Of a stretch of 64,000 nt of DNA, positions 16,559-59,949 are shown one piece after another (position 1 is the first letter of the stretch; each line of letters opens with the position of its first letter). A program made the position numbers and the translations under genes. A model generated the notes under the pieces. The model ran no database searches and had not been told where the DNA came from. It was given only the letters and a program-made list of their open reading frames with translations. Location of the stretch: NCBI GenBank assembly GCA_041600755.1, contig JBFIJL010000002.1:80850-144849 (forward strand), read 5' to 3'. This DNA comes from Candidatus Saccharimonadales bacterium. GTDB taxonomy: Bacteria; Patescibacteriota; Saccharimonadia; Saccharimonadales; JAXHNE01.

Positions 16559-16633
16559 TCCGGGGTAGCTCAGCGGTAGAGCGGGAAGCTGTTAACTTCT
16601 AGGTCGCTGGTTCGAATCCAGTCCCCGGAGCCA
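16559..16633 (+). tRNA. tRNA-Asn (anticodon GTT), CCA encoded
   Basis: Hand-folded cloverleaf: acceptor TCCGGGG/CCCCGGA, D arm GCTC-AGCGGTA-GAGC, anticodon arm GGAAG-CTGTTAA-CTTCT, T arm GCTGG-TTCGAAT-CCAGT, then G-CCA. Confidence 0.9.
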
Positions 16634-16799
16634 AAAGATGAGAGTCAGGTGTTTGCCTGGCTCTTTTCTTTGATCTTCGATGATTCGAACCTTGGTCGAA
16701 AATAGCCTGTGGCTATTTGAGTTTTCCTTGCTTGGCCGAACGAGAAATTTCATATTTCAAGAGAGCATATTTAGCACGAATCCAGTCCCCGGAGCCAAG
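16627..16799. repeat. Module M1, copy a (173 bp), bounded at both ends by GGAGCCA of the tRNA-Asn 3' end
   Basis: Aligns over its full length with 26643-26815, with about 8 mismatches by eye. It ends with cgaatccagtccccggagcca, which matches the last 21 nt of the tRNA. Confidence 0.9.
16641..16668 (+). terminator. Hairpin terminator after tRNA-Asn
   Basis: AGAGTCAGG-tgtttg-CCTGGCTCT followed by TTTT. Confidence 0.5.
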
Positions 16800-16889
16800 A
16801 AAGAACCATAGTCTTATGACTGTGGTTTTTTCTATGTTCTGAGATTTGACTTGGACTAAGCGACGCTACAATTTATTGGAGCAAGTCGC

Positions 16890-16964
16890 GCCAGTTCGAT
16901 AATCCCCCGAAGACTATGTCTTCAAACGGGCGGATTATATCCCATAATCCAGTCCCCGGAGCCA
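16890..16964. repeat. Module M2, copy a (75 bp), ends in a tRNA-Asn 3'-end copy
   Basis: gccagtt..ataatcc-cccg-aagac-tat-gtctt-caaa-cggg-c-ggattat...aatccagtccccggagcca. The partner is at 27438-27513. It contains a nested imperfect hairpin. Confidence 0.85.
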
Positions 16965-17018
16965 AAATATGAAAGTCACCCTTGTGGTGGCTTTTGTATT
17001 TTGCCCCTGTGTTTGTGT

Positions 17019-17104
17019 TCGAACCAGGTTGCTCGGAACGAGCTGGTTCGATATTTTGAGTGAGTACGTGCAGTGCTTGCACGTGCGAAAGCTCGCCAAA
17101 ATAT
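17019..17104. repeat. Module M3, copy a (86 bp)
   Basis: TCGAACCAG-(15 nt)-CTGGTTCGA hairpin, then atattttgag...ttgcacgtgcgaaagctcgccaaaatat. The partner is at 28790-28875. GCTGGTTCGA equals the tRNA-Asn T-arm 5' half. Confidence 0.85.
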
Positions 17105-17348
17105 TTCTAAACCCTGTGTTCTGTCTATGATAAACTGCAAAATTACTGTACGAAAAGCGAGTTTCTAGACTATTCCGCAGATGAAACAGAAACACCCGTT
17201 AAAGCTACAGTACGTGTCTTATGCCAACAATATATAAGCCGTCTTAAAACTCTATGAGCTCCAGCAGTTAGCATTGAGCTGTTTAAAGAGTTTAATATAG
17301 GAATATTTAGTTGTATTATATAATCAAATAGTTTACTGAAAGAAACTT

Positions 17349-17831
17349 ATGAATATAACAAACTGGCTTTCCATTATAATAATCGTTCTAGTACTAACCC
17401 TTATACTCTTTATAATTCTGGTAAGTAACAAGCTATCAAGACGGTTATTGTACCTCCATAAACATATTAGTGATTCGGTTCAGTCTAAGTTTATAGATGT
17501 TAGTCCTAGCACCCAGAGTTTAGTGGAAGCTGCGATTGAAGTATGGCGATTAGAGAAACGGATTAGCAAGGTATCAAAAGACCTATCGGAAGACCAAAAC
17601 AAAGCATTTGAAAACTCTATTACAAAGCTGAATAGATTTCTTGATAAAAATGATATTACTTTTGCCGACTATACAGACCAAAAGTATAACGAAGGACTTA
17701 ACTTAGATGTTCTCAGTATTGATAAAGATAAGAATGTAGCTGAGAGCATTATTAAAGAAACCCACGAACCAGCCGTATTCCACAAAGGTCAGTTAATTAA
17801 AAAAGCAAAGGTAGTTGTCCTTGAAAAGTAG
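17349..17831 (+). CDS. Membrane-anchored GrpE-like protein (putative nucleotide exchange factor)
   Basis: N-terminal TM, a coiled coil, and a C-terminal ~50 aa (YNEGLNLDV...IIKETHEPAVFHKGQLIKKAKVVV) resembling the GrpE beta-domain pattern. It lies directly upstream of the Hsp70 gene and overlaps it. Confidence 0.45.
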   Translation: MNITNWLSIIIIVLVLTLILFIILVSNKLSRRLLYLHKHISDSVQSKFIDVSPSTQSLVEAAIEVWRLEKRISKVSKDLSEDQNKAFENSITKLNRFLDKNDITFADYTDQKYNEGLNLDVLSIDKDKNVAESIIKETHEPAVFHKGQLIKKAKVVVLEK

Positions 17832-20355
17832 AAATTCCAAATCAAAGAGTGATGATGGTGTCATTAACATCGGTATAGATTTAGGTACGACTAATTCAGC
17901 AATAGCAGTTAATTATGACGGCAAGACAGAGATAGTAAAGAATGGGGCTGGCAGCGACTACACCCCGTCAGTTTTCGGTATTGATAAGTCTGGGAACAAA
18001 ATTGTAGGCGTTAAGGCATATGACCGACTCTACAAATCATCATCTGATGAGGAAATACAGAATAATAAAGCCGAAGTGAAACGTTTAATGGGTACAGGTG
18101 AAACAATTCACTTTGATAGGATTAACGCTGATTTAACACCCGAAGAAGTATCCGCCGAGATTCTTAAAAGTCTTAAAGAAGATGCAACAAGAAAGTATAG
18201 TGATTTATCTTCTGTTGCTGCTGTTATTACGATTCCTGCACACTTTTCATCATTACAAGCAGAAGCTACTAAACGAGCAGGACAACTAGCTGGATTCAAG
18301 CACGTAGTACTACTGCAAGAACCTATTGCAGCAGCTATGGCATACGGTTTTGAAAAGTCTAATAATGAAAACTGGTTAGTATATGACTTGGGTGGTGGAA
18401 CTTTTGATGTGGCACTCATTTCTTCAAAGGACAGTAATTTAACTGTACTTGGTCATAGTGGCGATAACTTTCTAGGTGGAAAAGACTTTGACTTAAAAAT
18501 CATTGATGAAGTAATAAAACCTGAAATCTTAAATAAGTACAAACTAACTGATTTTGATAGAAGTTCAGAGAAGTATAGTAGTATTTTTGCACGACTAAAG
18601 GCTGCTGCTGAAACTGCAAAGATAGAACTATCTCAGTATGCAAAGACAACAATAGAAGTTGAAGACATTGGTAAAGATGAGAATGGTAACGAGATTTACG
18701 TTTCCATAAACTTGACTCGTGACCAATTTGAAGAAATCATTGCACCTCACATTACGAAAACTATTGAACTTGTAAAGAATACTCTCAAAGATTCTGGTAT
18801 TGCGCAAAGCTCTGTATCTAAGATTGTGCTGGTCGGTGGACCGACGCAGATCCCTTATTTACGAAAAGCACTTGAAGATGAGTTCAAAATAAAGGTAGAT
18901 GGTTCAATAGACCCACTTACAGTTGTGGCTAAAGGTGCAAGCGTTTTTGGACTTAGTCAAAGAGTCCCTACAGATATTCTCAATGAAGGACGAGAATCTG
19001 TTAAAGACGAAATGAATGCAACTTTAAATTACGATTCAATGACATCTGACGACGACCAGACCATTGCAGGAGTTGTTGAAGAATTAAGGGGTAGCGAATC
19101 AGAGTACTTTGTTCAGATTCAAGCAGATAGTGGTTTCTACACTAGTTCAAAAATTAAGCTCAAAGGCGGAAAGTTCTTTGACACAATAGCTATTGATAAG
19201 GGCAAAACAAATACCTATTGGCTTTACCTTTTTGATGACGCTGGAAACACAATACCAATGTTTCCTGACAGCTTTTCAGTAACTCACGGATTAACAGTTG
19301 CTGGTGCGCCTATTCCGCACGACGTGGGCGTTATATACGCTAAAAAAGGTTTTGATAGTGGCTTTCGGATGACCGAAGTCTGTGACCCCTATTTTGAAAA
19401 GAATAGCGTCCCGCCGTTGAAAAAGACCAATAATTACAAAACCGTCAAGAAACTTGAAAAAGGGAAAGAGAATAACTTACCTATCAAGGTTTATGAGGGT
19501 AACTCTACAAATCCTTCAAATAACGAAGTGATAACTACACTTCATATTGATGGCAAGAAGCTTCCTTATGATTTACCAGAAGCTACTGACGTAGATATTA
19601 CAATAAGTATTGATGAGTCACGAACAGTAGTCGTAGAAGCATATATACCGAGTATTGAGCTTACCTTAAATGCTAGGGCTGATACTTATAAGCAACAGGT
19701 TAATGTTTCTGGACTTGAAAAAGATTTAGCTGTACAAAAAGAACGTCTTAAATCAATAAAGAATAATGTTTCAGATGAAGAATATGAACAGCTTGAAAAT
19801 ACGATTGACGACTTAGGCACCAACATTAAGAACGCCAATCTTGATAATGATGATAAGAATAAAGCCGAAAGAGATATGCGTGAGTTAAAGACTAGCTTTG
19901 ATTCATTAGAGCAATCTAAAGAACTCCCGCAGTTGAAAGACGAGTTTAATTCAAAGATTGAAAATGCAAAAGAAATTATTGCTGAACTTGACGAAAGTGC
20001 CGAAAAGAAAGAGATTCTTACTGACTTGAAGGTCTTAGAAGATGAGGGCGAAAAAGCACTTAAAGCCACTGATAAGACAATGTTACTTCGTGTTAATGAG
20101 CAGATTGAGCAACTTACTTTCCGCTCTGTTTTCCAGAACCCTGCTGCCTGGGTGTTAATGCTAAATCAAATCAAAGACAAGCAGAATGAACTGTCTAATC
20201 AAACTGACGCAAATTACTTCATTGATAAAGCAGACAAAGCCGTTGATGAGGGTGATGTTGAAGAACTAAAAAGGTGCGTTCGCAATCTATTAGATTTACT
20301 TCCTAAAGAAACTCAAGATGAAATCAATTCAAGCATGTCAGGTATTACTAAGTAA
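17815..20355 (+). CDS. Atypical long Hsp70-family ATPase (846 aa)
   Basis: GIDLGTTNSAIAV, VKRLMG, AVITIPAHFSSLQAEATKRAGQLAGF, LLQEPIAAAMAYG, VYDLGGGTFDVALI, GDNFLGGKDFD, IVLVGGPTQIPYL. An SBD-beta-like segment (LPIKVYEGNS...DVDITISIDESRTVVVEAY) follows a ~150-aa insert. The C-terminus is a ~230-aa coiled-coil tail. TTG start. Confidence 0.9.
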   Translation: MSLKSRNSKSKSDDGVINIGIDLGTTNSAIAVNYDGKTEIVKNGAGSDYTPSVFGIDKSGNKIVGVKAYDRLYKSSSDEEIQNNKAEVKRLMGTGETIHFDRINADLTPEEVSAEILKSLKEDATRKYSDLSSVAAVITIPAHFSSLQAEATKRAGQLAGFKHVVLLQEPIAAAMAYGFEKSNNENWLVYDLGGGTFDVALISSKDSNLTVLGHSGDNFLGGKDFDLKIIDEVIKPEILNKYKLTDFDRSSEKYSSIFARLKAAAETAKIELSQYAKTTIEVEDIGKDENGNEIYVSINLTRDQFEEIIAPHITKTIELVKNTLKDSGIAQSSVSKIVLVGGPTQIPYLRKALEDEFKIKVDGSIDPLTVVAKGASVFGLSQRVPTDILNEGRESVKDEMNATLNYDSMTSDDDQTIAGVVEELRGSESEYFVQIQADSGFYTSSKIKLKGGKFFDTIAIDKGKTNTYWLYLFDDAGNTIPMFPDSFSVTHGLTVAGAPIPHDVGVIYAKKGFDSGFRMTEVCDPYFEKNSVPPLKKTNNYKTVKKLEKGKENNLPIKVYEGNSTNPSNNEVITTLHIDGKKLPYDLPEATDVDITISIDESRTVVVEAYIPSIELTLNARADTYKQQVNVSGLEKDLAVQKERLKSIKNNVSDEEYEQLENTIDDLGTNIKNANLDNDDKNKAERDMRELKTSFDSLEQSKELPQLKDEFNSKIENAKEIIAELDESAEKKEILTDLKVLEDEGEKALKATDKTMLLRVNEQIEQLTFRSVFQNPAAWVLMLNQIKDKQNELSNQTDANYFIDKADKAVDEGDVEELKRCVRNLLDLLPKETQDEINSSMSGITK

Positions 20356-22187
20356 TGGCTAACCTCTTTCGGGACAACGCATATAACGTGTTAGGTTTAG
20401 ATATATCTGTTGCACAGAAAGAGATAAATAAGCGTTCTAAAGAAATTGTTAATTTACTTCGTATTGATGAGGAATCTACGTATGAAATAGATATTTCTGT
20501 TGCAAAGCCAAAGCGTACAGAATCTACTGTAAAAGAAGCAGTCCAGAAACTAAGTTCACCTACTAAAAAGATTCAGGAGTACTTCTTCTGGTTTGATATT
20601 GAAAGTGATACAGACGAGAAAGCTTTGAAGCTACTTCAATCTGGAAGTATAGATGAAGCAATTCAACTTTGGGAAAAAGATTCTGGCAAAGAAACAGCAA
20701 CAGGGTTTGTAGCAAAAAAGAATCTTGCCATACTTTTTTCTGTTTTGCTTGTAGATAAAGGTCAAAAGAAATATCTTACTCAGTCAATATCTTGCTGGAA
20801 AGATTTAGTAATGTCAGAGAAGTTCTGGTCATATTTTGAAAAGATATATGCGCTTAATGACGAAGTAGGCACCAGTAGTTCTGCCATTAAAGATTTTGAG
20901 TCCAAAGTTACAGATGTATTATCGGACTTCTATACAGATATTAGCCAGACTAAGGGCGATAATAGTTTCTACTCTCTTTTCGCACAAGTATTCGACGTAA
21001 AGGGTCTGAAAATGCAGCGTGATGTATTGTCACCAATCTATGAAGCAATAAATGACACCTCTGAAAAACTTAGGAATCTTAATATAAGTGAAGACAACAT
21101 AGTCAGTCCAGAGGAAATCACTGAATTAAAACGACTCACAAAACTATTACAGACTAATTTTGACAAGTTAAAAGAACTTGGACTCTTCTCCGATAGTCAA
21201 TCAAAGACAATGAGAGATAAAGCAGCAGAAGCACTTAGAGCTGTAGCTTTGGACTTGCATAACAACTTGGGTGAGTCAGAAAAGCCAGTTGCCCTGTTTA
21301 ACATCGCTAGTAAGATTGCAGGTACGACCGCCACTATAAATAAAATAAACAAAGATATTGAAACCCTTCGTCAGAACAGGTCCGATGAAAAGATAATTAA
21401 ACCAATCAACGACTTACTTGAAGATGAGAAGTTCACAGACGCATTAGATTTGATTGAAAAGCGAATGGAGTCCCACAAGTCTAATAAGGAATTAATGGAT
21501 TTCCTGACCGCACGTTTGAAATGGGCTATTACTGGCATTGCAGCTAAAGACTATAAAGAAACAATGCAACAATTTACTAGTGGTCATTTTGCAAAAGCAG
21601 AACAAAACTTTAGCGGCCTAAGAGAGTTTTTATTAAGCTATATTCACTACTTTAACTTCAACCAGGAAGCAATAAACGAAGTCCTTGCAGAGATTGACCA
21701 GTTGACGGGCGACCCAAAAGCGTTAAACATTGATAATGTACAAAACTACAGGAATAAATTACTTGAGGGTACGGAAGAAACTTTCAAAGACTCTTTTGAG
21801 TCCTCATTAATTGTTTTCTTAGTTGATTGTGGGATTTACGGAAATATGGCTGCACACCTCCCAGCAATTAAACGCAAAAATACTATAAAGAAATGGCTTT
21901 GGTATATCGTTATAGGAATTATCTTGCTTGTAATTTTCGGTAGTAGCAGCGATTCAAGCGATACAAACTCAACTTCTGGCAGCAGTTCAAGTTCTAGTAG
22001 CTCAGCTTGGCAAATATGTTCCGATGAATACGATAGACTAAAGAATGAACTGGATAGTGTTGAAGCTTCTATGAGGCGGTATGAGTCGTTTGATGACGCA
22101 GATGGTTATAATGCCCTAGTTCCACGTCAAAATAGTCTCGTGCAGCTGGTGAATAACAAAGCGACAGAATGTAATGGATTAAGATAA
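20355..22187 (+). CDS. J-domain-like protein lacking HPD, with a C-terminal TM, Ser-rich linker and short extracytoplasmic Cys-containing tail
   Basis: N-terminus NAYNVLGLDISVAQKEINKRSKEIVNLL resembles J-domain helices I-II, but no HPD follows. TM is WLWYIVIGIILLVIFG, followed by SSSDSSDTNSTSGSSSSSSSS. The start overlaps the Hsp70 stop (TAATG). Confidence 0.6.
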   Translation: MANLFRDNAYNVLGLDISVAQKEINKRSKEIVNLLRIDEESTYEIDISVAKPKRTESTVKEAVQKLSSPTKKIQEYFFWFDIESDTDEKALKLLQSGSIDEAIQLWEKDSGKETATGFVAKKNLAILFSVLLVDKGQKKYLTQSISCWKDLVMSEKFWSYFEKIYALNDEVGTSSSAIKDFESKVTDVLSDFYTDISQTKGDNSFYSLFAQVFDVKGLKMQRDVLSPIYEAINDTSEKLRNLNISEDNIVSPEEITELKRLTKLLQTNFDKLKELGLFSDSQSKTMRDKAAEALRAVALDLHNNLGESEKPVALFNIASKIAGTTATINKINKDIETLRQNRSDEKIIKPINDLLEDEKFTDALDLIEKRMESHKSNKELMDFLTARLKWAITGIAAKDYKETMQQFTSGHFAKAEQNFSGLREFLLSYIHYFNFNQEAINEVLAEIDQLTGDPKALNIDNVQNYRNKLLEGTEETFKDSFESSLIVFLVDCGIYGNMAAHLPAIKRKNTIKKWLWYIVIGIILLVIFGSSSDSSDTNSTSGSSSSSSSSAWQICSDEYDRLKNELDSVEASMRRYESFDDADGYNALVPRQNSLVQLVNNKATECNGLR

Positions 22188-23257
22188 TGGCAACTCCAAG
22201 CAAACCAATACTTTATAACGGCTATGAAGTCAGCAAGGGCGTAACCATAGTAAACAGAATTGAAAAGATTTTCTTCACTGAGATTTACCGATTAAGTGAT
22301 GACAACTTTTTATATCTGTTTATCAACCTGAAAACTAGTGATGTTCGTGGTGCTAAAGACAGATTAATGAAAATCACTCATCAGGGTACTGAGTATCTTG
22401 GTATTTTAACTACTCAACACTCACAAGAACACGTTACCGAAATTATTGATGGTCTGACTCAATTAAGAGGTTTTGCTTCGGTAGCAGGCATGTCAGAGCT
22501 GAAACATTTGCTGATAAATGATGTCATACAACCCTTACAAAACCCAGAGAAATATGAGAAGTTTAAGTTATCTGTCCCTAATGGAATCCTGCTGTATGGT
22601 CCACCAGGGTGCGGTAAAACTTTTATTGTTCGCAAGCTAGCAGAGGAGCTTGGTTACAACTTTGTTGAAGTAAAACATTCGGACATTGCTTCTTCTTACA
22701 TTCACGGCACAGTTGCAAAGGTAGGAAGGCTGTTTGAAATGGCTAAGCTCAAAGCACCGTCAATTATTTTTATAGATGAAATTGAAGGCCTGATTCCCAA
22801 GCGTGAATCTATGGGTTCAGAGTCGCAACATAAGCAAGAAGAAATCAATGAGTTTCTTATGCAGCTTAATGACGCTGGCAAGAATAAGGTACTGGTTGTT
22901 GCAGCGACAAATAGACCGCATTTAATTGATACTGCTCTATTGAGGGCTGGACGAATGGACAAACGAATAATGGTATCGCCACCAGATTTAGAAGCGAGAG
23001 AAGAACTATTTAAGTTATTTTTATCAGAACGTCCTACCAAAGATATTGATTACAAACAACTGGCTAAACTGACAGAATACTTTGTTAGCGCAGATATAGA
23101 ACTAATTGTTACAGAATCAGCTAGGGGAGCTGTTTTCCAAGATTTAGAGTATATTACGCAAGAAGTTGTAGAAGCTACTATCAAATCAACTACCCCTTCA
23201 ATTCTAGAAGATGAAATTGAATACTACAAACAGTTTGCAAGTATGGAAAGAATCTAA
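22187..23257 (+). CDS. Classical-clade AAA+ ATPase (single AAA domain, Cdc48/FtsH-like) with a unique N-terminal domain
   Basis: Walker A GPPGCGKT, Walker B IIFIDEIE, and second region of homology ATNRPHLIDTALLRAGRMDKRI. TAATG overlap with the upstream gene. Confidence 0.9.
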   Translation: MATPSKPILYNGYEVSKGVTIVNRIEKIFFTEIYRLSDDNFLYLFINLKTSDVRGAKDRLMKITHQGTEYLGILTTQHSQEHVTEIIDGLTQLRGFASVAGMSELKHLLINDVIQPLQNPEKYEKFKLSVPNGILLYGPPGCGKTFIVRKLAEELGYNFVEVKHSDIASSYIHGTVAKVGRLFEMAKLKAPSIIFIDEIEGLIPKRESMGSESQHKQEEINEFLMQLNDAGKNKVLVVAATNRPHLIDTALLRAGRMDKRIMVSPPDLEAREELFKLFLSERPTKDIDYKQLAKLTEYFVSADIELIVTESARGAVFQDLEYITQEVVEATIKSTTPSILEDEIEYYKQFASMERI

Positions 23258-23916
23258 TGCAAGCGTGGAATAACTTTGAGTATAAGAGTTCTGTGCCTTT
23301 TTTTCGCTGGAATTACCCAGAAGACAAAAAGACTAACTTAGATAGCCTTTTCAAACGCAGGAGTTTACTTCCTGAACTATTCTTAGGACTTATACTCTTT
23401 GCTTCTTTTAATAGTTGGTCTGATACATCACAGAGCTTCGGTAATTTACTCATTTACGTATTGTGGGTACTAATAGCACTAGCTTTGTTTACGCTAGCAA
23501 TAGTAAATGGAAAGTCTTTGCTATTGCCAGATGTAATTACTCGTCCTTTAACACTTCTAATAACAGTTTTTCAGTTACTTGTAGCTATACAAACAGACAA
23601 TGCAGGGCATTTAGGTTCTGTCTTACTTGGAGGATTAATTGTAGGTGGTGTCCCATACATGCTATTTCAGATTTCTCAAGGTAAATGGATTGGTGGTGGG
23701 GATGTGAAGCTAGGTTTTGCTGCTGGATTATTGCTCGGCTGGAAAATTGGTTTATTGTGCCTAGGTATAGTATTTGCATTAACGCTGCTATCAATTTTAT
23801 TTGAAGTCGTAAGCAGCAAAGCTTCAAAAACTGAGTCACCATTTCGCATTGGAACTGGAACAATATGGGTTCTCTCTATTTTTCTAGCGTTATTTATTGG
23901 TCAGCAGATAATCTAG
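23257..23916 (+). CDS. A24-family (prepilin peptidase-like) membrane aspartyl protease, no methyltransferase domain
   Basis: Polytopic, with both catalytic-Asp motifs: LLLPDVITRPL and GGGDVKLGFAAGLLLG. TAATG overlap with the AAA+ gene. Confidence 0.7.
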   Translation: MQAWNNFEYKSSVPFFRWNYPEDKKTNLDSLFKRRSLLPELFLGLILFASFNSWSDTSQSFGNLLIYVLWVLIALALFTLAIVNGKSLLLPDVITRPLTLLITVFQLLVAIQTDNAGHLGSVLLGGLIVGGVPYMLFQISQGKWIGGGDVKLGFAAGLLLGWKIGLLCLGIVFALTLLSILFEVVSSKASKTESPFRIGTGTIWVLSIFLALFIGQQII

Positions 23917-24006
23917 CTAGACAACCGCCACTTAAAGTATGCGATATATCTGCATTGAGAAAATTACATTATTCGTACTATACTTTAATAAAATGAGTGA
24001 CAGTAT

Positions 24007-24867
24007 ATGAAAGAGACTTTATTCGGCATATTTATAATCGTTTGGTTGGCGATTATTGTTCTATGGGTTATAGCCTTGATAAAACCCAAAGCGAAAGTAT
24101 TTAATACGCTACAGTCAAGATTTAATGGGCGTAAAGGATTATCAAAACTCTTTGCGCCTTTATTTATTATCTCGTTTATATTTCTAGCCGTGTTTTCACC
24201 TCCTTTAGCTGTTGAGCTCAAAGGACTTAATCTGGAAGCTGACCAAGAAGTTATCACCGAGCAATTTACTATAGAAGGAGAGGTTTCTGGTAGCTTTAAG
24301 ACGTTTTTAGTTAATAATGAAGCAATTACTTTAGAAAAAGGTAGGTTTTCAAAGACTCTTAATTTAAAGCCAGGCGATAATAAGGTTAAAATCTTGCTAA
24401 CCTATGTTGACGAGGAAGACAAAGAAGTTGAAGCATTTAATAAGACGCACAACATATACTTTGATTACGAGGGAATGCTATATGCTCGTGAACTAGAAAA
24501 GGACAAGCAAGCAGAAGATGAGTTAAAACGAAAGCTTGCTGAAATACCAAGGTATGAAACTGTACGTAAGACAGATATAGAAAACGGCTTCTCTGCAATT
24601 ATATATGTTGAAGGCAATATGGAAGACTATCAGATAACTAATATTGCTAAAGATATTGAAAATAATAATTCTGACACGAAGAACATCTCGGTGCTTATGT
24701 TTAGTAAGACACAAAAAACAGAGGTTGAGGCTGTGCTTGAAAATAGTACCCCTTCTGAACTCATTACATATATCCGAGCAAATTATGAGAAACGTGACAG
24801 TAATAAGCAGCTATTTTGGTTCCCTAAGGGCGCAGAGGACGAGAAGCTTGCATTGGAGATACAATGA
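24007..24867 (+). CDS. Hypothetical membrane-anchored protein
   Basis: N-terminal TMs, then a 200-aa Lys/Glu-rich region. No recognisable motif. Confidence 0.55.
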   Translation: MKETLFGIFIIVWLAIIVLWVIALIKPKAKVFNTLQSRFNGRKGLSKLFAPLFIISFIFLAVFSPPLAVELKGLNLEADQEVITEQFTIEGEVSGSFKTFLVNNEAITLEKGRFSKTLNLKPGDNKVKILLTYVDEEDKEVEAFNKTHNIYFDYEGMLYARELEKDKQAEDELKRKLAEIPRYETVRKTDIENGFSAIIYVEGNMEDYQITNIAKDIENNNSDTKNISVLMFSKTQKTEVEAVLENSTPSELITYIRANYEKRDSNKQLFWFPKGAEDEKLALEIQ

Positions 24868-25700
24868 TTAAAAAACTCAAATACATAGCGTTATTACTTA
24901 TATTATTAACAGTTCCTCAACAAGTTCTGGCTCACCCAGGAAGAACAGATTCCAGTGGCGGACATAACTGTCGCACTGGTCCATGTGCTGGAACATACCA
25001 CTATCATAATGGGGGCGGTTCAACAGCACCTTCGTCACCCGCACCCACGCCAGCCCCTACACCCGCACCCACGCCAGCCCCACAGCCAGTGACTCAACCA
25101 AAACCAAAGAAAACAATTGAGACTATAAGTGGCTTAGTTTCGGTAAGTGCAGCGAATACGCTCTGGGTTGATTTAATTCTTGAGGAAGTATCTAGAAGCA
25201 AAACCGCAACAAACTATACGACAGTTAATCCAGTCACCACAGCCACGAGTAGAATCACTGGTGCAACTCAAGAACCGAAAGTTAATGGAGACCAGAAGTT
25301 TTATTACGTGAGTGAAGTGACGGACGGTGATACGATAAAAGTAGTTGTTGACGGCAGAATTGAAAAGGTTAGGCTGCTTGGTATAGATACACCAGAAACA
25401 AAAGACCCCCGTAAGCCAGTGCAGTGCTTTGGCATGGAAGCTAGTAAGTACGCAGCTACGTTGATGCTCAATAAATATGTACGTTTAGAGCTTGATAAAT
25501 CTCAAGGGGACAGAGACAGGTACAACAGACTGCTTAGGTATGTATATCTTGAGAACGGTGCGGAGGTTAATGCCGAGCTTGTAAAGCAGGGTTATGCACT
25601 AGCATATCTTCGTTATCCAGTTGCACAAACTGAAACTTACAAACAACTACAATCAAAAGCAGAAAGTCAGAGTCTTGGGCTATGGAGTGCTTGCAGATGA
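24864..25700 (+). CDS. Secreted YHYH-domain / Pro-Thr linker / thermonuclease (SNase) fusion
   Basis: Signal peptide ...QQVLAHPGRTDSSGGHNCRTGPCAGTYHYHNGG (YHYH motif), (PAPT)n linker, then DGDTIKV...VRLLGIDTPETKDPRKPVQCFG...RDRYNRLLRYVYL...GLW. Confidence 0.85.
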   Translation: MIKKLKYIALLLILLTVPQQVLAHPGRTDSSGGHNCRTGPCAGTYHYHNGGGSTAPSSPAPTPAPTPAPTPAPQPVTQPKPKKTIETISGLVSVSAANTLWVDLILEEVSRSKTATNYTTVNPVTTATSRITGATQEPKVNGDQKFYYVSEVTDGDTIKVVVDGRIEKVRLLGIDTPETKDPRKPVQCFGMEASKYAATLMLNKYVRLELDKSQGDRDRYNRLLRYVYLENGAEVNAELVKQGYALAYLRYPVAQTETYKQLQSKAESQSLGLWSACR

Positions 25701-25740
25701 TAAGAATAGTACTTCTATTAAAATCACTAAGGCTTGATGT

Positions 25741-26367
25741 ATGATTTGGATAATTTTAGCCGCACTGATTTTGATATGCTTTGTTATTTATAGATTTACT
25801 AAACGGCTAATGATAGACATACGAGCAGGAAAAGCTAAGCAAAAAGGTTTATTTAGTAAAAGAGAATGGAGAGCAATACCTTTCCAAACTAGTGGTTCTC
25901 ACGGGGTCCCTATGCGCATGGCATTCAGTGAAATTGCTACTAAAAGTGCTTACCAAGGTAATTTCAAAGTTACGTTCAGTCGTTTTATAGATACTGCGAT
26001 GATTGCTGACGATAAATTGAACGCAGATGAAGTAAGACATCTAATAGAAACTCTATACGACGACCTGTCAGCCATACAATTCCTCGGAGATTCGCACACT
26101 ATGACTAGAGAATATGGTATGGTGCAAGCTGCAACACTTTATGCGCTTATTTGTACTCAAGACAAAGGTGCGAATATAAAGCGTCGTTTAATGGTGAGCA
26201 AGGATAATCACAGTGAAAACAATATGTATTTACAGCAGAAGACCGATAGAGAATACTTTGAATACATGAATGATAGTTACCCCAATTTCTGTCAAATGGT
26301 TAGCATACTTGAGCCACGCAAGGCTAATTTGATAGAAGTAGTTGCTGGATACTTATTAACTGATTAA
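25741..26367 (+). CDS. Hypothetical protein with an N-terminal TM
   Basis: 208-aa ORF with no recognisable motif. Confidence 0.5.
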   Translation: MIWIILAALILICFVIYRFTKRLMIDIRAGKAKQKGLFSKREWRAIPFQTSGSHGVPMRMAFSEIATKSAYQGNFKVTFSRFIDTAMIADDKLNADEVRHLIETLYDDLSAIQFLGDSHTMTREYGMVQAATLYALICTQDKGANIKRRLMVSKDNHSENNMYLQQKTDREYFEYMNDSYPNFCQMVSILEPRKANLIEVVAGYLLTD

Positions 26368-26642
26368 GTTGATAAAATCTTTATAGGTAACTATTTAGAA
26401 ACACAGGTGTTTTATATTTAGGCACTTTGCCGATGTTCTATTAGAAAGAGCGTTTTAATATCGCAGTTGAAAGCGCAAAACAGAATATACCTATATATAT
26501 TAGTTTTTGCGTTTTTAAATACTATCCCATATAGGTTCAAAGCCTTGTGCGTCAGGTTCAAAATAACGCCTAGCATTATCTACTTCACGGGCTAAGCGTA
26601 CAATAGCGTTGTAATACTTAGTGCGGAACATGTACGGTAGAG

Positions 26643-26815
26643 GGAGCCAAAAGATGAGAGTCAGGTGTTTGCCTGGCTCTTTTCTTTTATCTTCGATGAT
26701 TCGAACCTTGGTCGAAAATAGCCTGTGGCTATTTGAGTTTTCACTGCTTGACCGAACGATAAATTTCATATTTAGAGAGAGCATATTTAGCACGAATCCA
26801 GTCCCCGGAGCCAAG
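26643..26815. repeat. Module M1, copy b (173 bp)
   Basis: See 16627-16799. It also ends in cgaatccagtccccggagcca. Confidence 0.9.
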
Positions 26816-26934
26816 CCGTAAAAGACAAAGTCAGAACTGTGAAAATGGCAGAGATTTTTTGATACCCAGACTAAGATTGAAACTACTAAATTCTTATGCT
26901 TGCATTTCAGTAAAACTAGATAAATAATTTCATT

Positions 26935-27291
26935 ATGCCAGTTTACTATTCTGTTGAAATAACTAAACACGATGACCCAGATGCTGAAGCCAGTTTTTTA
27001 ATTCGTCCACCAATAAGCTTTCTCAGCCCGAAGACTAAGGGAGAGCTGGTGGATACACTTCGAAGTCTTATTAGGAACCGATTGGGCGATAATGAGGACG
27101 ATGATTTACGGCTCGCAATTACCCATAATCTTGCAGATGACTCAGCAACAGTTGGACGTGCACATTTTCGTGGGCTTCAACTTGCTACTGGAGTAGTGGT
27201 TCTGCAACAGGCCTTAGAGCTTGGACTAAATGGCACCAATGCGTTTGTTAGTCCAACTAGCCCCATGAGAAGCAAGTCAGCATTTGATTAG
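26935..27291 (+). CDS. Hypothetical 118-aa protein (cassette between M1b and M2b)
   Basis: ORF with no recognisable motif. It is followed by ...gttgtgagccaaa and a hairpin (gtccgtcc-tgaaaa-gggcgg-ttttt). Confidence 0.45.
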   Translation: MPVYYSVEITKHDDPDAEASFLIRPPISFLSPKTKGELVDTLRSLIRNRLGDNEDDDLRLAITHNLADDSATVGRAHFRGLQLATGVVVLQQALELGLNGTNAFVSPTSPMRSKSAFD

Positions 27292-27437
27292 GCACACTCC
27301 AAGTCAGCCTTAATTATAGTTATAACTTCCTCATTGTTGTGAGCCAAATAAAGTCCGTCCTGAAAAGGGCGGTTTTTATTTGGCTTTGTGAATTGAGCTG
27401 GATTCAAGCGACTTGCCAACCCGTTGGCGATAGTCGT

Positions 27438-27513
27438 GCCAGTTTAATAATCCACCGAAGCCTATGTCTTCAAACGGGCGGATTATACCCGAGTAATCCA
27501 GTTTTCGGAGCCA
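27438..27513. repeat. Module M2, copy b (76 bp, more degenerate)
   Basis: gccagttt.ataatccaccgaagcctatgtcttcaaacgggcggattata...taatccagttttcggagcca. Confidence 0.85.
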
Positions 27514-27586
27514 AGCCTAAGAACATAACCAACAGGGAAAGGACGCAATTATTTTATTGAGAGGTAGTAAACACTTAACTCGTTGA

Positions 27587-28318
27587 CTATTTATCGTACC
27601 CGGCACCGATCTTAGGTTTTTGAATATAGCTTTTTACCTTTGATGGATCAACTAATAAATCGTTAGTAAGAATTTCAACATAGTTTTTTACAAAACCTGG
27701 AGTGCCAGAAATAGCTATCTCTGAGTCCCCTGAAACAACATTTTCAAGTTGCTTTGATTTAATTTTATTTGGAGAGACTACTTCTTCGAGGCTTACATTC
27801 TCTAATTCTTTGGTCATTTTTTCTATTTCTTTACCAAAGATAAAATCCTCATCTTTGTTGGCATAGAATATCGATATGTTTGTACCTCGCCTATCCTCAT
27901 ATTCATCCTTAAGTATTGAGTAGAGTGGGGCCACCCCAATGCCCCCTACGATAAAGACCTGGTGTTTATCGTAGTCTTGTATCTTGAAATTATCCATCAT
28001 GAATGACGGGCCAATTGCCTTTATTTTGTCTCCTGCATTTAATTTGAATAATGCTTTCTTAAACGAACTAGAATGTTCGCCAAAATACCTGGTTGAAAAT
28101 GCTAGGTTCTCTTCATGTGGAGCAGATGTAATTGAAAAGACTCTTATGCCTCCTCTTTTATCTTTACTTTTGTGCTTTAAGCTAAATATAAAGTGCTGTC
28201 CCGCTTGATATTCTTGTCTTGGCTTTGTAAACCTAAAGGTATAAACGTTTTGCGCTTCTTGTTTTTTATCAATAAATTCAATCGTGTCGGATTTTAAACC
28301 TTGAATGATATTTTTCAT
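27587..28318 (-). CDS. Ferredoxin-NADP reductase-like FAD/NAD(P)-binding oxidoreductase
   Basis: RVFSITSAP (RxYS-type FAD motif) and VGGIGVAPLYSIL (NAD(P) motif). The start is set at internal Met 28318 so the operator-like palindromes stay intergenic. Confidence 0.7.
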   Translation of the reverse strand: MKNIIQGLKSDTIEFIDKKQEAQNVYTFRFTKPRQEYQAGQHFIFSLKHKSKDKRGGIRVFSITSAPHEENLAFSTRYFGEHSSSFKKALFKLNAGDKIKAIGPSFMMDNFKIQDYDKHQVFIVGGIGVAPLYSILKDEYEDRRGTNISIFYANKDEDFIFGKEIEKMTKELENVSLEEVVSPNKIKSKQLENVVSGDSEIAISGTPGFVKNYVEILTNDLLVDPSKVKSYIQKPKIGAGYDK

Positions 28319-28359
28319 ATTTACCCCATGCTTTCTTTTTAGCGAGAATACTATTTCCA

Positions 28360-28401
28360 CTTTACTTAGTAAAGTCTATTGTACGGCTTTACTAAGTAAA
28401 G
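28360..28401. promoter_or_regulatory. Two copies of a 15-bp near-palindrome in the divergent oxidoreductase/HxlR intergenic region
   Basis: CTTTACTTAGTAAAG at 28360-28374 and its reverse complement CTTTACTAAGTAAAG at 28387-28401. Between and beside them are GTCTATTGTAC / GTACAATAGAC. Confidence 0.45.
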
Positions 28402-28413
28402 TACAATAGACTT

Positions 28414-28728
28414 ATGGAAAGTTTGTGTAAAAAAGACACTCCTGAGCACATAAAAGAAGCTCTATTGATACTAGGTGATAAATGGTCAGCTCTTATATTG
28501 AAGCAACTTCACCATAGCCCTCATAGGTATTCTGAAATGGAGGAGAAACTAAGCGGAATAAGTAGCCGAACTCTAGCAAAACGCTTAGATATGCTGATTG
28601 AGAAAGATATTATCCAAAAAAGTACATTCAACAGTGCCAAACATCATGTTTATGAACTAACAAAAAAGGGTAGAGCCATGGATGAAATAATTCATGCAAT
28701 GGCCCAATGGGGAAAGAAGTTTAGCTAG
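28414..28728 (+). CDS. HxlR-family winged-helix transcriptional regulator
   Basis: LILGDKWSALILKQL...RYSEMEEKLSGISSRTLAKRLDMLIEKDII. 104 aa. Confidence 0.85.
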   Translation: MESLCKKDTPEHIKEALLILGDKWSALILKQLHHSPHRYSEMEEKLSGISSRTLAKRLDMLIEKDIIQKSTFNSAKHHVYELTKKGRAMDEIIHAMAQWGKKFS

Positions 28729-28789
28729 CAAGAGTTCTAGGAGTTCGCAGCTATAACTTTCTCTATCGTTGTGAGCCGAAAGAAAGGAG

Positions 28790-28875
28790 TCGAACCAGGT
28801 AGCAAGGAACTATCTGGTTCGATATTTTGAGCGATTACGTCCAGCACTTGCACGTGCGAAAGCTCGCCAAAATAT
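28790..28875. repeat. Module M3, copy b (86 bp)
   Basis: The same TCGAACCAG/CTGGTTCGA stem with a different 15-nt loop, then atattttgag...cttgcacgtgcgaaagctcgccaaaatat. Confidence 0.85.
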
Positions 28876-29032
28876 AGCTTAATAATCCAGCCCCGTCGTG
28901 ACCCTGGAACTTCATCTTCGCAAACAAGTTCCCAAGAGAAGGTTTCCCTGCAAAAGTCCATAGGATTTTCTAACCGCGGAGCAATCATTAGCACCATTAC
29001 CCACAATCAAAACGACTCTGATATGTTAAAAT

Positions 29033-29278
29033 ATGACCATGAATGACGACCAGCTAAATGATTTAAAACAGTTTATAGATTCACGAATCTCACAGTCTGT
29101 TGAAAATCTAGCCTCAAAAGATGATATAAAAACCCTAGCCTCAAAAGATGATATAAAACGACTCGAACAAAAGGTAGACGACGGATTCTCTGGAGTTGGT
29201 GAAGCAGTTGATGAAGTGAATCAAGCCTTAACTAACCACGAACAACGTGTAACAAAACTAGAAGCCAAAATAGCTTAA
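29033..29278 (+). CDS. Hypothetical 81-aa coiled-coil protein with an internal 9-aa tandem duplication
   Basis: LASKDDIKT/LASKDDIKR is encoded by a 27-nt period repeat (29108-29158). Confidence 0.5.
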   Translation: MTMNDDQLNDLKQFIDSRISQSVENLASKDDIKTLASKDDIKRLEQKVDDGFSGVGEAVDEVNQALTNHEQRVTKLEAKIA

Positions 29279-29306
29279 TACCCAGAGCCAAGACATAATA
29301 AACCGG

Positions 29307-29361
29307 GTCAGAACTGTGAAAATGGTTCTGGCTTTTCTGCACCCGGAATAGAATTAAAGCC
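29307..29361. repeat. Module M4, copy a (55 bp: terminator hairpin plus tail)
   Basis: gtcagaactgtgaaaatggttctggcttttctgcacccggaatagaattaaagcc. The partner is at 30517-30571 (3 mismatches). A partial copy is at 26830-26848. Confidence 0.9.
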
Positions 29362-29369
29362 AACAAGTT

Positions 29370-29930: not shown

Positions 29931-30031
29931 GGCTTTAATTATAATCCTAGTTGTTTAACAATAAACGCTCATGGTAATATTAATAGTGTTAACGCTGTTA
30001 ACACTATATCAAGAATGAAAGGAAAGAAACA

Positions 30032-30448: not shown

Positions 30449-30516
30449 ACTAAACTGTCTTTTTTATGCAAGCACAATTACTGTAGCAATGCATGAAGCA
30501 ACTACAAGAAAACAAA

Positions 30517-59914: not shown

Positions 59915-59949
59915 GTTTGTGGTATTTGCGCTATACTTCTAGGTAAATT

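What the first reader, a model, noticed from the sequence alone, without database searches (positions are those of the whole stretch)
16627..26815. A 9.8-kb AT-rich segment at tRNA-Asn bracketed by 173-bp direct repeats, with no recombinase
The 173 bp that begin at the GGAGCCA of the tRNA-Asn 3' end (16627-16799) recur at 26643-26815, with only about 8 mismatches by eye. Both copies terminate in cgaatccagtccccggagcca, the last 21 nt of the tRNA.

The enclosed genes are all on one strand and look markedly more AT-rich than the neighbouring ATP synthase or smpB genes.

This is the classic footprint of integration at a tRNA 3' end. However, the repeat is unusually long, and no integrase, excisionase or transposase is visible anywhere between 16.6 and 31 kb.
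Basis: partly seen in the sequence, partly recalled or inferred. Interest (0 to 1): 0.7.

Follow-up and report, generated by a model that had tools for sequence, protein, structure and literature searches.

The report
Recombinase-less island remnant at tRNA-Asn
The AT-rich 10-kb segment is most likely a horizontally acquired integrative element that has lost its large serine recombinase gene, sitting in a pile-up of older insertion scars behind tRNA-Asn of a Saccharibacteria genome; this is a known kind of genomic island in an under-studied phylum.

Summary
The 173-nt repeat (16627-16799 / 26643-26815) is 166/173 identical, both copies end in the last 21 nt of tRNA-Asn, and the enclosed DNA is 37.6% GC against 44.5% outside. 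No recombinase gene lies between 12 and 64 kb.

The interpretation needs revision.
- The tRNA 3' end occurs at least five times, with decaying copies out to about 30.5 kb. The locus is an array of about ten small modules, not one island.
- Relatives supply the missing recombinase. The same operon (a 160-aa protein, an Hsp70-like ATPase, a ~610-aa helical protein, an AAA+ ATPase and an A24-like peptidase) lies beside a ~545-aa large serine recombinase that abuts tRNA-Asn, or beside another family at tRNA-Gly.
- In those elements the true repeat is only 6-10 nt at the tRNA's end.
- So the 173-nt unit is probably a duplicated dead module, not the integration footprint.
- An independent genome (L084) shows the same architecture at tRNA-Gly, with a 5'-truncated recombinase gene.

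The closest known case is the Dehalococcoides ssrA island arrays. I rate it a new member of a known kind, of moderate interest. The order of events is inferred, and the linkage across the repeat has no independent check.

The parts
16559..16633 (+). tRNA-Asn(GTT), the integration target (att0 is its last 19-21 nt, 16613-16633)
   Evidence: ARAGORN; Rfam tRNA, 68.6 bits
16627..16799 (+). Repeat copy R1. It consists of the last 7 nt of the tRNA, module M (16634-16778: terminator hairpin, T-run and a GATTCGAACC box at 16682-16691) and att1 (16779-16799, 21 nt of the tRNA end).
   Evidence: The box lies at offset 49-58 from the tRNA end, as GGTTCTAACC does in intact recombinase genes of L086, L170 and L172.
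16800..16964 (+). Module S2. It starts AGAAAGAAC (L086 has AGATAGAAC after its tRNA) followed by a hairpin. It holds D6 (16858-16942) and ends in att2 (16946-16964).
   Evidence: It is 76% identical to 27371-27514.
16965..17111 (-). Flank after att2 with a hairpin, a T-run and a TGTTCGAACC box (17017-17026). It includes D5 (17019-17111). Proposed relic of the 3' tail of the element's own serine-recombinase gene (left end of element E).
   Evidence: Alignment A2; the minus-strand translation reads ..LVRT.....FWLRGLD. The protein-level signal beyond the tRNA-coded residues is not significant.
17349..17831 (+). 160-aa protein with an N-terminal hydrophobic segment; first gene of the conserved cargo core
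   Evidence: No family hit. It is always found upstream of the Hsp70-like gene in L083-L088.
17815..20355 (+). [quoted passage not shown]
   Evidence: Pfam HSP70, E=3.7e-83. Homologues of 53-94% identity occur across Saccharibacteria and other Patescibacteria.
20355..22187 (+). 610-aa all-alpha, TPR-like protein with a C-terminal hydrophobic helix. Possibly a degenerate J-like co-chaperone; this is only a lead.
   Evidence: No Pfam or PDB sequence hit. AlphaFold model pLDDT 83.8. The best fold hit is P58(IPK)/DNAJC3 at E=1.1e-3 with TM 0.15-0.19, which is weak.
22187..23257 (+). 356-aa classical AAA+ ATPase (FtsH/PAN/CDC48-like; IetA-like in PADLOC)
   Evidence: Pfam AAA, E=6.4e-37; PADLOC IetA, E=9.9e-38; NCBIfam IteA scores 121 bits against a cut-off of 510.
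23257..23916 (+). 219-aa membrane protein, Peptidase_A24-like
   Evidence: Pfam E=2.5e-7. Also present in L086 and L088.
24007..26367 (+). Variable cargo: a 286-aa protein (24007-24867), a secreted SNase nuclease with lamin-tail-like region (24864-25700) and a 208-aa protein (25741-26367)
   Evidence: Pfam SNase, E=3.5e-26; PADLOC C3a212 'SNc+LTD', E=1.9e-38. Homology to L086 stops at 23765.
26625..26649 (+). Right junction of element E: ggaacatgtacggtagag | GGAGCCA. Only 7-10 nt match the tRNA end.
   Evidence: This is the same kind of short-core junction as the attR of L083, L085 and L086.
26643..26815 (+). Repeat copy R2: GGAGCCA, module M' and att3 (26795-26815)
26816..27346 (+). Module with the D4 terminator (26823-26884) and a 118-aa ORF (26935-27291). 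It ends in a P arm plus GTGAGCCAA (27315-27346) that matches the right end of the L086 element.
   Evidence: 90% over 40 nt; alignment A4
27347..27513 (+). Module with a terminator, D6' (27406-27490) and a degenerate att4 (27495-27513, 16/19)
27514..28788 (.). Module with a NAD-binding oxidoreductase (27587-28360, minus strand) and an HxlR regulator (28414-28728). It ends in a second L086-type P arm plus GTGAGCCGA (28752-28788).
28790..29290 (.). Module starting with D5' (28790-28882, 86% to D5). It holds an 81-aa coiled-coil ORF (29033-29278) and ends in a degenerate att5 (about 29272-29290).
29291..30571 (.). Module with terminator D4' (29300-29361), a TetR regulator (29370-29930, minus strand) and DUF1761 (30032-30448), followed by D4'' (30510-30571) after a very degenerate att
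56938..57244 (+). The same kind of scar at tRNA-Ser(GGA). The tRNA is 56938-57029. A 63-nt perfect repeat lies at 57009-57071 / 57182-57244. The spacer carries a GATTCGAACG box at offset 49-58 from the tRNA end.

Best explanation
The region from tRNA-Asn (16.6 kb) to about 30.6 kb is an array of about ten small modules. They were left by repeated site-specific integration of elements that use a large serine recombinase (LSR) and target the 3' end of tRNA-Asn.

The 9.7-kb AT-rich part is one such element, E, most likely spanning 16965-26642. It brought in a conserved operon: a 160-aa protein, an Hsp70-like ATPase, a 610-aa helical protein, an AAA+ ATPase and an A24-like peptidase, plus variable genes. 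E has since lost its recombinase and backbone genes by deletion. What remains is a recombinase-less, att-flanked cassette, like a cis-mobilizable element.

The 173-nt repeats are two copies of a neighbouring dead module. Each copy holds the tRNA's last 7 nt, a flank collinear with an LSR gene tail, and an older 21-nt att. The second copy, preceded by att2, reproduces the tRNA/downstream junction exactly, so it mimics attB. E most likely integrated into that mimic. Alternatively, the unit was duplicated or captured by recombination between att copies.

The repeats now allow the 10-kb unit to be lost or regained by homologous recombination, or by a related recombinase acting in trans.

Shown: the anatomy, the composition, the horizontal spread of the operon, the LSR-bearing relatives at the same locus, and the truncated-LSR intermediate in L084. 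Inferred: the order of events, the exact limits of E, and any present mobility.
For: - Multiple att copies decay with distance from the tRNA. Each is followed by a hairpin terminator.
- The closest cargo relative is L086 (Hsp70-like protein 94% aa identical; 82% nt identity over window 17310-23765). Its contig begins in the tRNA-Asn 3' end and runs straight into a 542-aa LSR on the opposite strand. That ORF reads into the tRNA.
- The same LSR family (more than 120 clusters at 70-90% identity) sits in L170/L171 and L172 in the same neighbourhood as the window: ATP synthase ... SNase, GT2, GH42-like, smpB ... tRNA-Asn | LSR. The LSR overlaps the tRNA by 42 nt, and the cargo differs, for example a type I R-M system in L170.
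- L083, L085 and L087 carry the same operon beside another LSR family that abuts tRNA-Gly. Their right junctions share only GCACCAAG with the tRNA.
- L084 (a 778-kb contig) has a 193-nt, 100% identical repeat. It starts with the last 6 nt of tRNA-Gly, ends with a 16-nt tRNA-end copy, and brackets the operon. Only the C-terminal 108 codons of the LSR remain there (76% identical to L083), fused next to the HTH_17 gene. The right P arm is 92% identical to L083's.
- The flanks after att0, att2, R2 and tRNA-Ser are collinear with intact LSR gene tails. A TTC(G/T)AAC box lies at offset 49-58 in M, M', the tRNA-Ser unit, L086, L170 and L172, and at 53-62 after att2.
- Joining the two flanks of E reconstitutes the tRNA/M junction: 19 nt on the left and at least 45 nt on the right.
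- Horizontal origin is supported. The operon is 37-38% GC in six genomes whose flanks are 40-48%. The Hsp70-like protein is 82-94% identical in genomes from collections whose best SmpB match is only 58-64%.
- No phage structural or replication genes were found, and no other RNA family.
Against: - Beyond the residues encoded by the tRNA itself, the similarity of the flanks to LSR tails is not statistically significant at the protein level (scores of 1.2 or less). The relic claim rests on DNA collinearity and the positional box.
- The junction at 26643 has a P arm unlike the L086-type P arm. L086-type P arms do occur at 27315-27346 and 28752-28788. The right limit of E could therefore be 27346, or the 26643 junction could be a deletion end point.
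- No closely related genome with an empty site was found. The best SmpB identity is 64%, and the organism was seen in one sample only.
- The two-step history (duplication of the attB-like unit, then integration into it) is one of several that yield the same structure.
- The join across the repeats was not verified independently of the assembly.
Confidence: 0.68

Rival explanations
1. A single island was inserted once at tRNA-Asn, and the 173-nt direct repeats are the att duplication made by that event. The recombinase is encoded elsewhere and acts in trans.
For: The repeat is real, starts in the tRNA and ends in a tRNA-end copy. No recombinase gene lies in the window.
Against: - Related elements with intact recombinases make only 6-10-nt repeats.
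- The repeat contains an internal complete att plus a terminator, so it is composite.
- Two more att copies and a further module lie between R1 and the cargo.
- L084 shows the recombinase gene being lost by truncation rather than being absent from the start.
Confidence: 0.08
2. The players are the same but the history differs. The repeat-cargo-repeat structure arose in one of two ways. Either an excised circle that had captured the neighbouring module (excision between the tRNA att and a distal att) re-integrated by homologous or site-specific recombination. Or the segment [E + module] was tandemly duplicated by unequal exchange between att copies, and one E copy was then excised precisely.
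For: Arrays of identical 16-21-nt att copies give the substrates. The 100% identical repeats in L084 fit a recent event within one lineage. Accretion and cis-mobilization have been proposed for Dehalococcoides ssrA islands (PMC3146451).
Against: Each route needs two or three steps. The three left/right repeat pairs differ in divergence (96%, 76%, 86%), which argues against a single recent duplication in the window. Nothing here separates this history from integration into a pre-existing attB mimic.
Confidence: 0.2
3. Assembly artefact or mixed population. The cargo plus one repeat copy is really an extrachromosomal or excised circle, the chromosome has an empty site, and the assembler threaded the circle into the chromosome.
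For: The k=31 contigs of the same sample break inside the repeat. They leave the linkage of the two repeat variants open.
Against: The two copies differ at 7 positions flanked by only 45 and 40 identical nt, so assemblers with k above about 50 can resolve them. The same architecture is assembled within a 778-kb contig in an unrelated sample. Even if true, this would be the excision product of the same element.
Confidence: 0.07
4. Not mobile at all: a native, vertically inherited, low-GC operon that happens to lie next to tRNA-Asn, with the repeats being local duplications.
For: The Hsp70-like operon is widespread and well conserved in the phylum.
Against: - In other genomes the same operon lies at tRNA-Gly or tRNA-Asn next to recombinases.
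- Its GC is constant and independent of the host.
- Relatives that share the smpB-tRNA-Asn synteny have other DNA downstream (L091, L170, L172).
- The operon is far more similar between genomes than SmpB is.
Confidence: 0.03
5. Remnant of a prophage integrated at tRNA-Asn.
For: Phages commonly use tRNA genes as integration sites. A nuclease gene is present.
Against: There are no capsid, tail, terminase, portal or replication hits in Pfam or PHROGs. Related intact elements (L083, L085, L086) also lack them. No relative of the recombinase was found in IMG/VR.
Confidence: 0.02

Closest known systems
Dehalococcoides ssrA-specific genomic islands (McMurdie et al. 2011, PMC3146451; read)
   Same: - Tandem islands lie downstream of a small stable-RNA gene, bounded by about 20-nt direct repeats of its 3' end.
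- A serine recombinase of about 540 aa sits on the reverse strand next to attL.
- The long att copies start in the T-loop.
- Many islands lack the integration module and were proposed to be cis-mobilizable by accretion.
- The islands have low GC.
   Different: - The target here is tRNA-Asn (also tRNA-Gly, and probably tRNA-Ser), not tmRNA.
- The phylum is Saccharibacteria.
- No second small serine recombinase (a DsiA/CcrA equivalent) was seen next to the LSR in L086, L170 or L172.
- The LSR ORF runs into the tRNA gene.
- Intact elements here show only a 6-10-nt core repeat.
- The cargo is an Hsp70-like/AAA+ operon rather than dehalogenases.
CIME/ICE accretion in streptococci (cis-mobilizable elements; own knowledge; reviews listed, e.g. 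PMC5704250, not read)
   Same: Segments flanked by att sites but lacking recombination and transfer genes, derived by deletion. They lie in tandem with related elements at one att locus. The att copies serve as secondary integration sites.
   Different: Those systems use tyrosine integrases and conjugative helpers. No helper or conjugation genes are seen here, and mobilization is untested.
SCCmec and pseudo-SCC arrays at rlmH/orfX (own knowledge; compared with the ssrA islands in PMC3146451)
   Same: Integration is driven by a large serine recombinase at the 3' end of a conserved gene, with short direct repeats. Composite arrays include elements without ccr genes.
   Different: The target is a protein-coding gene. 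SCCmec uses CcrA/CcrB pairs. The host phylum and the cargo differ.
Tycheposon arrays in Prochlorococcus islands (Hackl et al., bioRxiv 10.1101/2020.12.28.424599; listed, not read; own knowledge)
   Same: A streamlined genome in which a tRNA-linked hotspot accumulates partial tRNA repeats and cargo-only segments without recombinases.
   Different: As I recall, tycheposons are defined by tyrosine recombinases (some by serine recombinases) together with replication modules. No such hallmark genes are present here. Membership was not tested.
Classical tRNA-linked genomic islands with P4-type tyrosine integrases
   Same: A tRNA gene at one end, a repeat of the tRNA 3' end at the other, and deviant composition.
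   Different: No tyrosine integrase is present in the window or in any related locus examined at these tRNAs. The recombinase class in relatives is serine.

Membership tests
tRNA-linked genomic island (generic) | A tRNA gene at one boundary and a direct repeat of its 3' end at the other | tested here: met
   tRNA-Asn 16559-16633. Exact 19-21-nt copies lie at 16779, 16946 and 26795, and a 16/19 copy at 27495.
tRNA-linked genomic island (generic) | Composition different from the rest of the genome | tested here: met
   37.6% GC against 44.5% (sd 1.9%). Tetranucleotide distance 0.27-0.36 against 0.11-0.21.
tRNA-linked genomic island (generic) | Integrase gene next to the tRNA-proximal end | tested here: not met
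   No recombinase family hit in any ORF from 12 to 64 kb. Only flanks collinear with LSR gene tails are present.
tRNA-linked genomic island (generic) | Variable presence among related genomes (an empty site exists) | tested here: inconclusive
   L091 keeps smpB-tRNA-Asn but has unrelated DNA downstream. L170 and L172 have other cargo. All relatives are distant, with SmpB at most 64% identical. No strain-level comparison is available.
Large-serine-recombinase integrative element (ssrA-GI / SCC-like) | An LSR gene (Resolvase + Recombinase + Zn_ribbon_recom) at the end next to attL | tested here: not met
   Absent in the window. Present in relatives L086, L088, L170 and L172 (tRNA-Asn family) and in L083, L085 and L087 (tRNA-Gly family).
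Large-serine-recombinase integrative element (ssrA-GI / SCC-like) | A short core shared by attL and attR, with little further identity | tested here: met
   Left, GGAGCCAAAA at 16958; right, GGAGCCAAAA at 26643, preceded by unrelated sequence. The same holds in L083, L085 and L086.
Large-serine-recombinase integrative element (ssrA-GI / SCC-like) | Recombination activity at these sites | not testable with these tools
   Needs reads, PCR for attP/attB junctions, or a biochemical assay.
Cis-mobilizable element (CIME) | Flanked by att sites and lacking recombination and transfer genes | tested here: met
   att copies lie on both sides. No recombinase or transfer genes were found.
Cis-mobilizable element (CIME) | Derived from an autonomous element by deletion | tested here: met
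   L086 has a 4.8-kb block (the LSR plus three genes) where the window has 345 nt. L084 keeps only LSR residues 394-501.
Cis-mobilizable element (CIME) | Mobilized when a related element integrates beside it | not testable with these tools
   No population or experimental data.
Integron | An intI tyrosine integrase with attI, and cassettes ending in attC hairpins | tested here: not met
   No integrase. No inverted repeats of 30 nt or more in 15-32 kb. The module borders are tRNA-end copies.
Prophage | Virion, packaging or phage replication genes | tested here: not met
   PHROGs and Pfam give none.
Known anti-phage systems (PADLOC models), for the cargo | A full set of system-defining proteins above threshold | tested here: not met
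   There are only partial hits: an IetA-like AAA+ ATPase and 'C3a212' SNc+LTD. The NCBIfam IteA score is 121 against a cut-off of 510. No IetS-like protease. The Hsp70-like protein has no PADLOC hit.

The most novel reading that the evidence does not exclude
The short units behind the tRNAs (tRNA end, recombinase-tail-like flank, att copy; 164-187 nt) may not be mere scars. They could be maintained, duplicable attB mimics, that is, landing pads. Such pads would let serine-recombinase elements and their recombinase-less derivatives be inserted, stacked and exchanged without touching the tRNA. That would give ultra-small Saccharibacteria genomes an integron-like cassette platform. The conserved Hsp70-like / helical / AAA+ / A24-like operon that it spreads could be a new membrane-associated defence or exclusion system.
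Probability: 0.12. Interest if true: 0.65.

Novelty: new member of a known kind. Interest (0 to 1): 0.4.

Why it matters
Saccharibacteria and other Patescibacteria have tiny genomes, and my literature searches found no description of such elements in them.

This locus and the related loci recovered here show that large-serine-recombinase elements specific for tRNA-Asn and tRNA-Gly are abundant in the phylum. They repeatedly use the smpB-tRNA-Asn site, stack into arrays, and decay into recombinase-less cassettes.

They carry defence-type cargo, such as a type I R-M system in L170 and a SMODS gene in L088. They also carry a widespread, uncharacterized Hsp70-like/AAA+ operon.

This gives a concrete route for gene flow in the group. 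It also yields candidate recombinase/att pairs that could serve as integration tools for these hard-to-manipulate bacteria.

Tried and rejected
- **Empty-site search.** SmpB-anchored scans of GTDB species genomes and JGI metagenomes returned only distant relatives, at 45-64% identity. Most lack tRNA-Asn after smpB. Exact-protein look-ups found the organism in a single sample.
- **Viral collections.** One IMG/VR contig (L082) carries the tRNA-Asn 3' half, but it looks like the 3' exon of an intron-split tRNA rather than an attP. No LSR relative was found in IMG/VR.
- **Structured RNA in the repeat units.** Rfam finds only the two tRNAs.
- **Protein-level proof that the flanks are recombinase relics.** A profile of the LSR C-terminus hits the four att-adjacent places first. 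Once the tRNA-encoded residues are removed, nothing is significant. The claim therefore rests on DNA collinearity alone.
- **Shared P arm.** No similarity was found between the window's right junction and the L170, L172, L086 or L088 loci, nor between the non-coding tails of the window and L084 beyond shuffled controls.
- **The 81-aa ORFs.** Those of the window and L002 are not demonstrably homologous (E=0.027).
- **Cargo function.** CoCoNuT-type Hsp70-like proteins are fused or linked to McrB/McrC (PMC11090510), which are absent here. PADLOC gives no complete system. The 610-aa protein has no sequence match in the PDB and only a weak TPR/P58(IPK) fold match. One call failed on a frame error.
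- **Other explanations.** Integron and prophage readings were rejected (see the membership tests).

Full report
**1. The observation**

ARAGORN and Rfam place tRNA-Asn(GTT) at 16559-16633 on the + strand. The 173-nt direct repeat 16627-16799 / 26643-26815 is real: 96% identity, blastn E=3e-60, and 7 mismatches, all between repeat positions 46 and 133. Both copies begin with GGAGCCA, the last 7 nt of the tRNA. Both end with CGAATCCAGTCCCCGGAGCCA, its last 21 nt.

The eight enclosed genes are all on the + strand. They are 37.6% GC, against 44.5% (sd 1.9%) in 2-kb windows elsewhere, and the tetranucleotide deviation is clear. No ORF of 80 aa or more between 12 and 64 kb matches a recombinase, integrase or transposase family. 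The description is confirmed.

**2. What else is at the locus**

The 19-mer AATCCAGTCCCCGGAGCCA occurs exactly at 16615 (the tRNA), 16779, 16946 and 26795, and at 16/19 at 27495. Shuffled sequence gives none. Weaker copies lie at about 29272 and about 30490. Each is followed by the same terminator-like repeat, D4, at 26823, 29300 and 30510.

Two more repeat pairs lie in the same order on the left and on the right: 16824-16965 ~ 27371-27514 (76%) and 17019-17111 ~ 28790-28882 (86%). Low GC continues to about 30.6 kb.

The region is thus an array of about ten att-bounded modules. Some are 164-167 nt and hold no gene. Others carry one or two genes: a 118-aa ORF; an oxidoreductase with HxlR; an 81-aa ORF; TetR with DUF1761.

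A comparable 173-nt unit follows tRNA-Ser at 56938-57244. It has a perfect 63-nt repeat made of the tRNA end plus a terminator.

**3. The organism and the locus in relatives**

SmpB (15989-16459) places the window in Saccharibacteria. The best matches in GTDB species genomes and in JGI metagenomes are only 58-64% identical. Exact proteins were found in one sample only, SRR29257383. No strain-level empty site is available.

Upstream synteny (ATP synthase ... SNase, GT2, GH42-like, smpB) is conserved in L003, L090, L091, L095, L096, L170 and L172. The DNA downstream of smpB/tRNA-Asn differs in each. This marks the site as a hotspot.

**4. The cargo is horizontally mobile**

The Hsp70-like protein has homologues of 82-94% identity in many Saccharibacteria contigs, and down to 53% in other Patescibacteria. 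These collections have no SmpB closer than 64%.

The core (a 160-aa protein, the Hsp70-like ATPase, a protein of about 613 aa and an AAA+ ATPase, with or without an A24-like peptidase) is about 37-38% GC in six genomes whose flanks are 40-48%. It lies at different tRNAs.

**5. The missing recombinase**

- In L086, the closest relative of the cargo, the contig starts with 31 nt identical to the tRNA-Asn 3' end. It continues into a 542-aa protein on the other strand with Resolvase, Recombinase and Zn_ribbon_recom domains. That reading frame runs into the tRNA.
- This large serine recombinase (LSR) family is abundant.
- In L170/L171 and L172 it sits at the same chromosomal locus as in the window. 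It overlaps tRNA-Asn by 42 nt, with its stop codon in the anticodon loop. It carries other cargo, including a type I R-M system.
- L083, L085 and L087 carry the operon beside a second LSR family (about 22% identical) that abuts tRNA-Gly.
- The right junctions of L083 and L085 share only GCACCAAG with the tRNA.
- The right end of L086 shares only GAGCCAAG.

These recombinases therefore leave a 6-10-nt repeat, not one of 173 nt.

**6. An independent twin**

L084 lies on a 778-kb contig from another sample and has no intact LSR. A 193-nt, 100% identical repeat starts with the last 6 nt of tRNA-Gly and ends with a 16-nt tRNA-end copy. It brackets the HTH_17 gene and the operon.

tblastn shows that only residues 394-501 of the LSR remain. 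They are 76% identical to L083 and lie next to an HTH_17 gene that is 97% identical. The P arm before the right repeat is 92% identical to the L083 attR.

So L084 is a deletion derivative of an L083-like element, with the same repeat architecture as the window. That argues for a recurrent process and makes the window's arrangement unlikely to be a coincidence.

**7. Anatomy of the 173-nt unit**

The flanks after att0 (module M), after att2, after the GGAGCCA of R2 and after tRNA-Ser are collinear with the 3' coding tails of intact LSR genes. Each has a short A/G-rich start, a hairpin, a T-run, and then a TTC(G/T)AAC box.

- The box lies at offset 49-58 from the tRNA end in L086, L170 and L172, where it encodes MVRT. 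It lies at the same offset in M, M' and the tRNA-Ser unit.
- It lies at offset 53-62 after att2.

By my own rough estimate (not a tool result), the same 7-mer at one offset in three independent flanks is very unlikely by chance.

At the protein level the similarity is carried by the tRNA-encoded residues (WLRGLDSNQR). It is not significant without them. I therefore treat 'recombinase-tail relic' as likely but not proven.

Each unit then ends with a different short P arm and a 19-21-nt att copy that starts in the T-loop. That is the signature of an older right junction.

**8. Most likely history (inferred)**

Element E is bounded on the left by att2 (GGAGCCA at 16958-16964) and on the right by gtacggtagag | GGAGCCA at 26643. 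Joining its outer flanks reconstitutes the tRNA/M junction, with 19 nt on the left and at least 45 nt on the right. E therefore sits in a near-perfect mimic of attB, created by duplication of the tRNA-proximal modules.

Compared with L086, a 4.8-kb block holding the LSR and three backbone genes is replaced by 345 nt.

Other routes give the same map and cannot be excluded: capture of the neighbouring unit during excision followed by re-integration, or tandem duplication followed by excision of one copy.

The right limit of E is also uncertain. L086-type P arms occur further right, at 27315-27346 and 28752-28788.

**9. The cargo**

- The 846-aa protein has an Hsp70 nucleotide-binding domain (E=3.7e-83) and a long C-terminal extension.
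- The 610-aa protein is modelled with confidence (pLDDT 83.8) as an all-alpha repeat with a C-terminal hydrophobic helix. Its best fold match is the Hsp70 co-chaperone P58(IPK), but weakly.
- By eye its N-terminus resembles a J domain without the HPD motif. This is a lead only.
- The AAA+ ATPase is of the classical clade and is IetA-like in PADLOC, but it falls far below the NCBIfam IteA cut-off.
- Downstream are an A24-like membrane protein and a secreted SNase with a lamin-tail-like region.
- There are no phage genes.

A defence or exclusion role is plausible from context: a SMODS gene lies next to the operon in L088, and an R-M system rides on the same LSR family in L170. It is untested.

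**10. Comparison with known systems**

The closest described system is the Dehalococcoides ssrA genomic islands. These are tandem islands bounded by 20-nt repeats of the ssrA 3' end. They have a serine recombinase of about 540 aa next to attL on the reverse strand and a T-loop insertion point. Fifteen of the islands lack an integration module, and these were proposed to be cis-mobilizable by accretion (PMC3146451).

CIME/ICE accretion, SCC arrays and tycheposon arrays are related concepts (otherwise own knowledge).

The window's segment fails the defining test for an autonomous element, because it has no recombinase. It meets the structural tests for a cis-mobilizable remnant.

**11. Verdict**

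This is a real feature of a known kind: a decayed serine-recombinase island in an accretion array at a tRNA. The long repeat is a duplicated scar unit, and the recombinase was deleted.

The points of interest are:
- the phylum;
- the abundance of tRNA-specific LSR elements in it;
- the recurrent repeat architecture;
- the uncharacterized operon.

Main caveat: the linkage across the repeat is not independently verified.

Noticed in passing
window 56938-57244: tRNA-Ser(GGA) is followed by a 173-nt unit. A perfect 63-nt repeat (the tRNA's last 21 nt plus a terminator) lies at 57009-57071 / 57182-57244. The spacer carries GATTCGAACG at the same offset (49-58) as the MVRT-coding box of tRNA-Asn recombinase genes. 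This looks like a scar of a tRNA-Ser-specific element.
   Followed up: partly
L002 4395-4694; L082 7056-7117: In a distant relative, tRNA-Asn is split in the anticodon loop by an insert of about 230 nt that looks like a group I intron. ARAGORN misses the gene. An IMG/VR contig (L082) carries the same 3' half, preceded by sequence ending in G.
   Followed up: no
window 58097-60873: Three genes (a 395-aa unknown, a 215-aa HNH endonuclease and a 307-aa GP88-like protein) lie between homologues of genes that are adjacent in L003. This is a second small insertion of phage-like genes.
   Followed up: no
window 16460-57281 compared with L003 10448-10954: In L003, smpB is followed directly by homologues of the window's genes at 57.3-62 kb. 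The whole 41-kb stretch between tRNA-Asn and tRNA-Ser is therefore absent or relocated there. That stretch holds HSP20, a sortase, two CHASE histidine kinases, CHAP/LysM and a MacB-type ABC transporter.
   Followed up: no
window 12876-13454 and 24864-25700: The island's secreted SNase is a paralogue of a chromosomal SNase gene upstream of smpB, with 61% nt identity over 284 nt. The chromosomal copy is conserved in relatives.
   Followed up: no
window 25227-25245: AATCCAGTCACCACAGCCA matches the att 19-mer at 16/19, inside the SNase gene. My own back-of-envelope estimate, not a tool result, is about 0.01 such matches expected in the window, so it is probably chance.
   Followed up: no
L170 1598-7531; L088 12189-13528: Elements of the same recombinase family, or carrying the same operon, hold recognizable defence genes: a type I R-M system (HsdR/S/M) in L170, and a SMODS nucleotidyltransferase plus a 163-aa partner in L088.
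   Followed up: no
L170/L172 11597-11671; L083 3934-3945: The recombinase reading frames end inside the tRNA gene. In the tRNA-Asn family, 14 codons are tRNA-encoded and the stop lies in the anticodon loop. In the tRNA-Gly family the frame ends ..IWCG*. The C-terminus of the enzyme must therefore differ between the integrated and the excised state.
   Followed up: partly
L086 4034-4891: An 850-nt stretch without a called gene lies between the SHOCT-domain gene and the operon in the closest intact relative. Its content was not examined.
   Followed up: no
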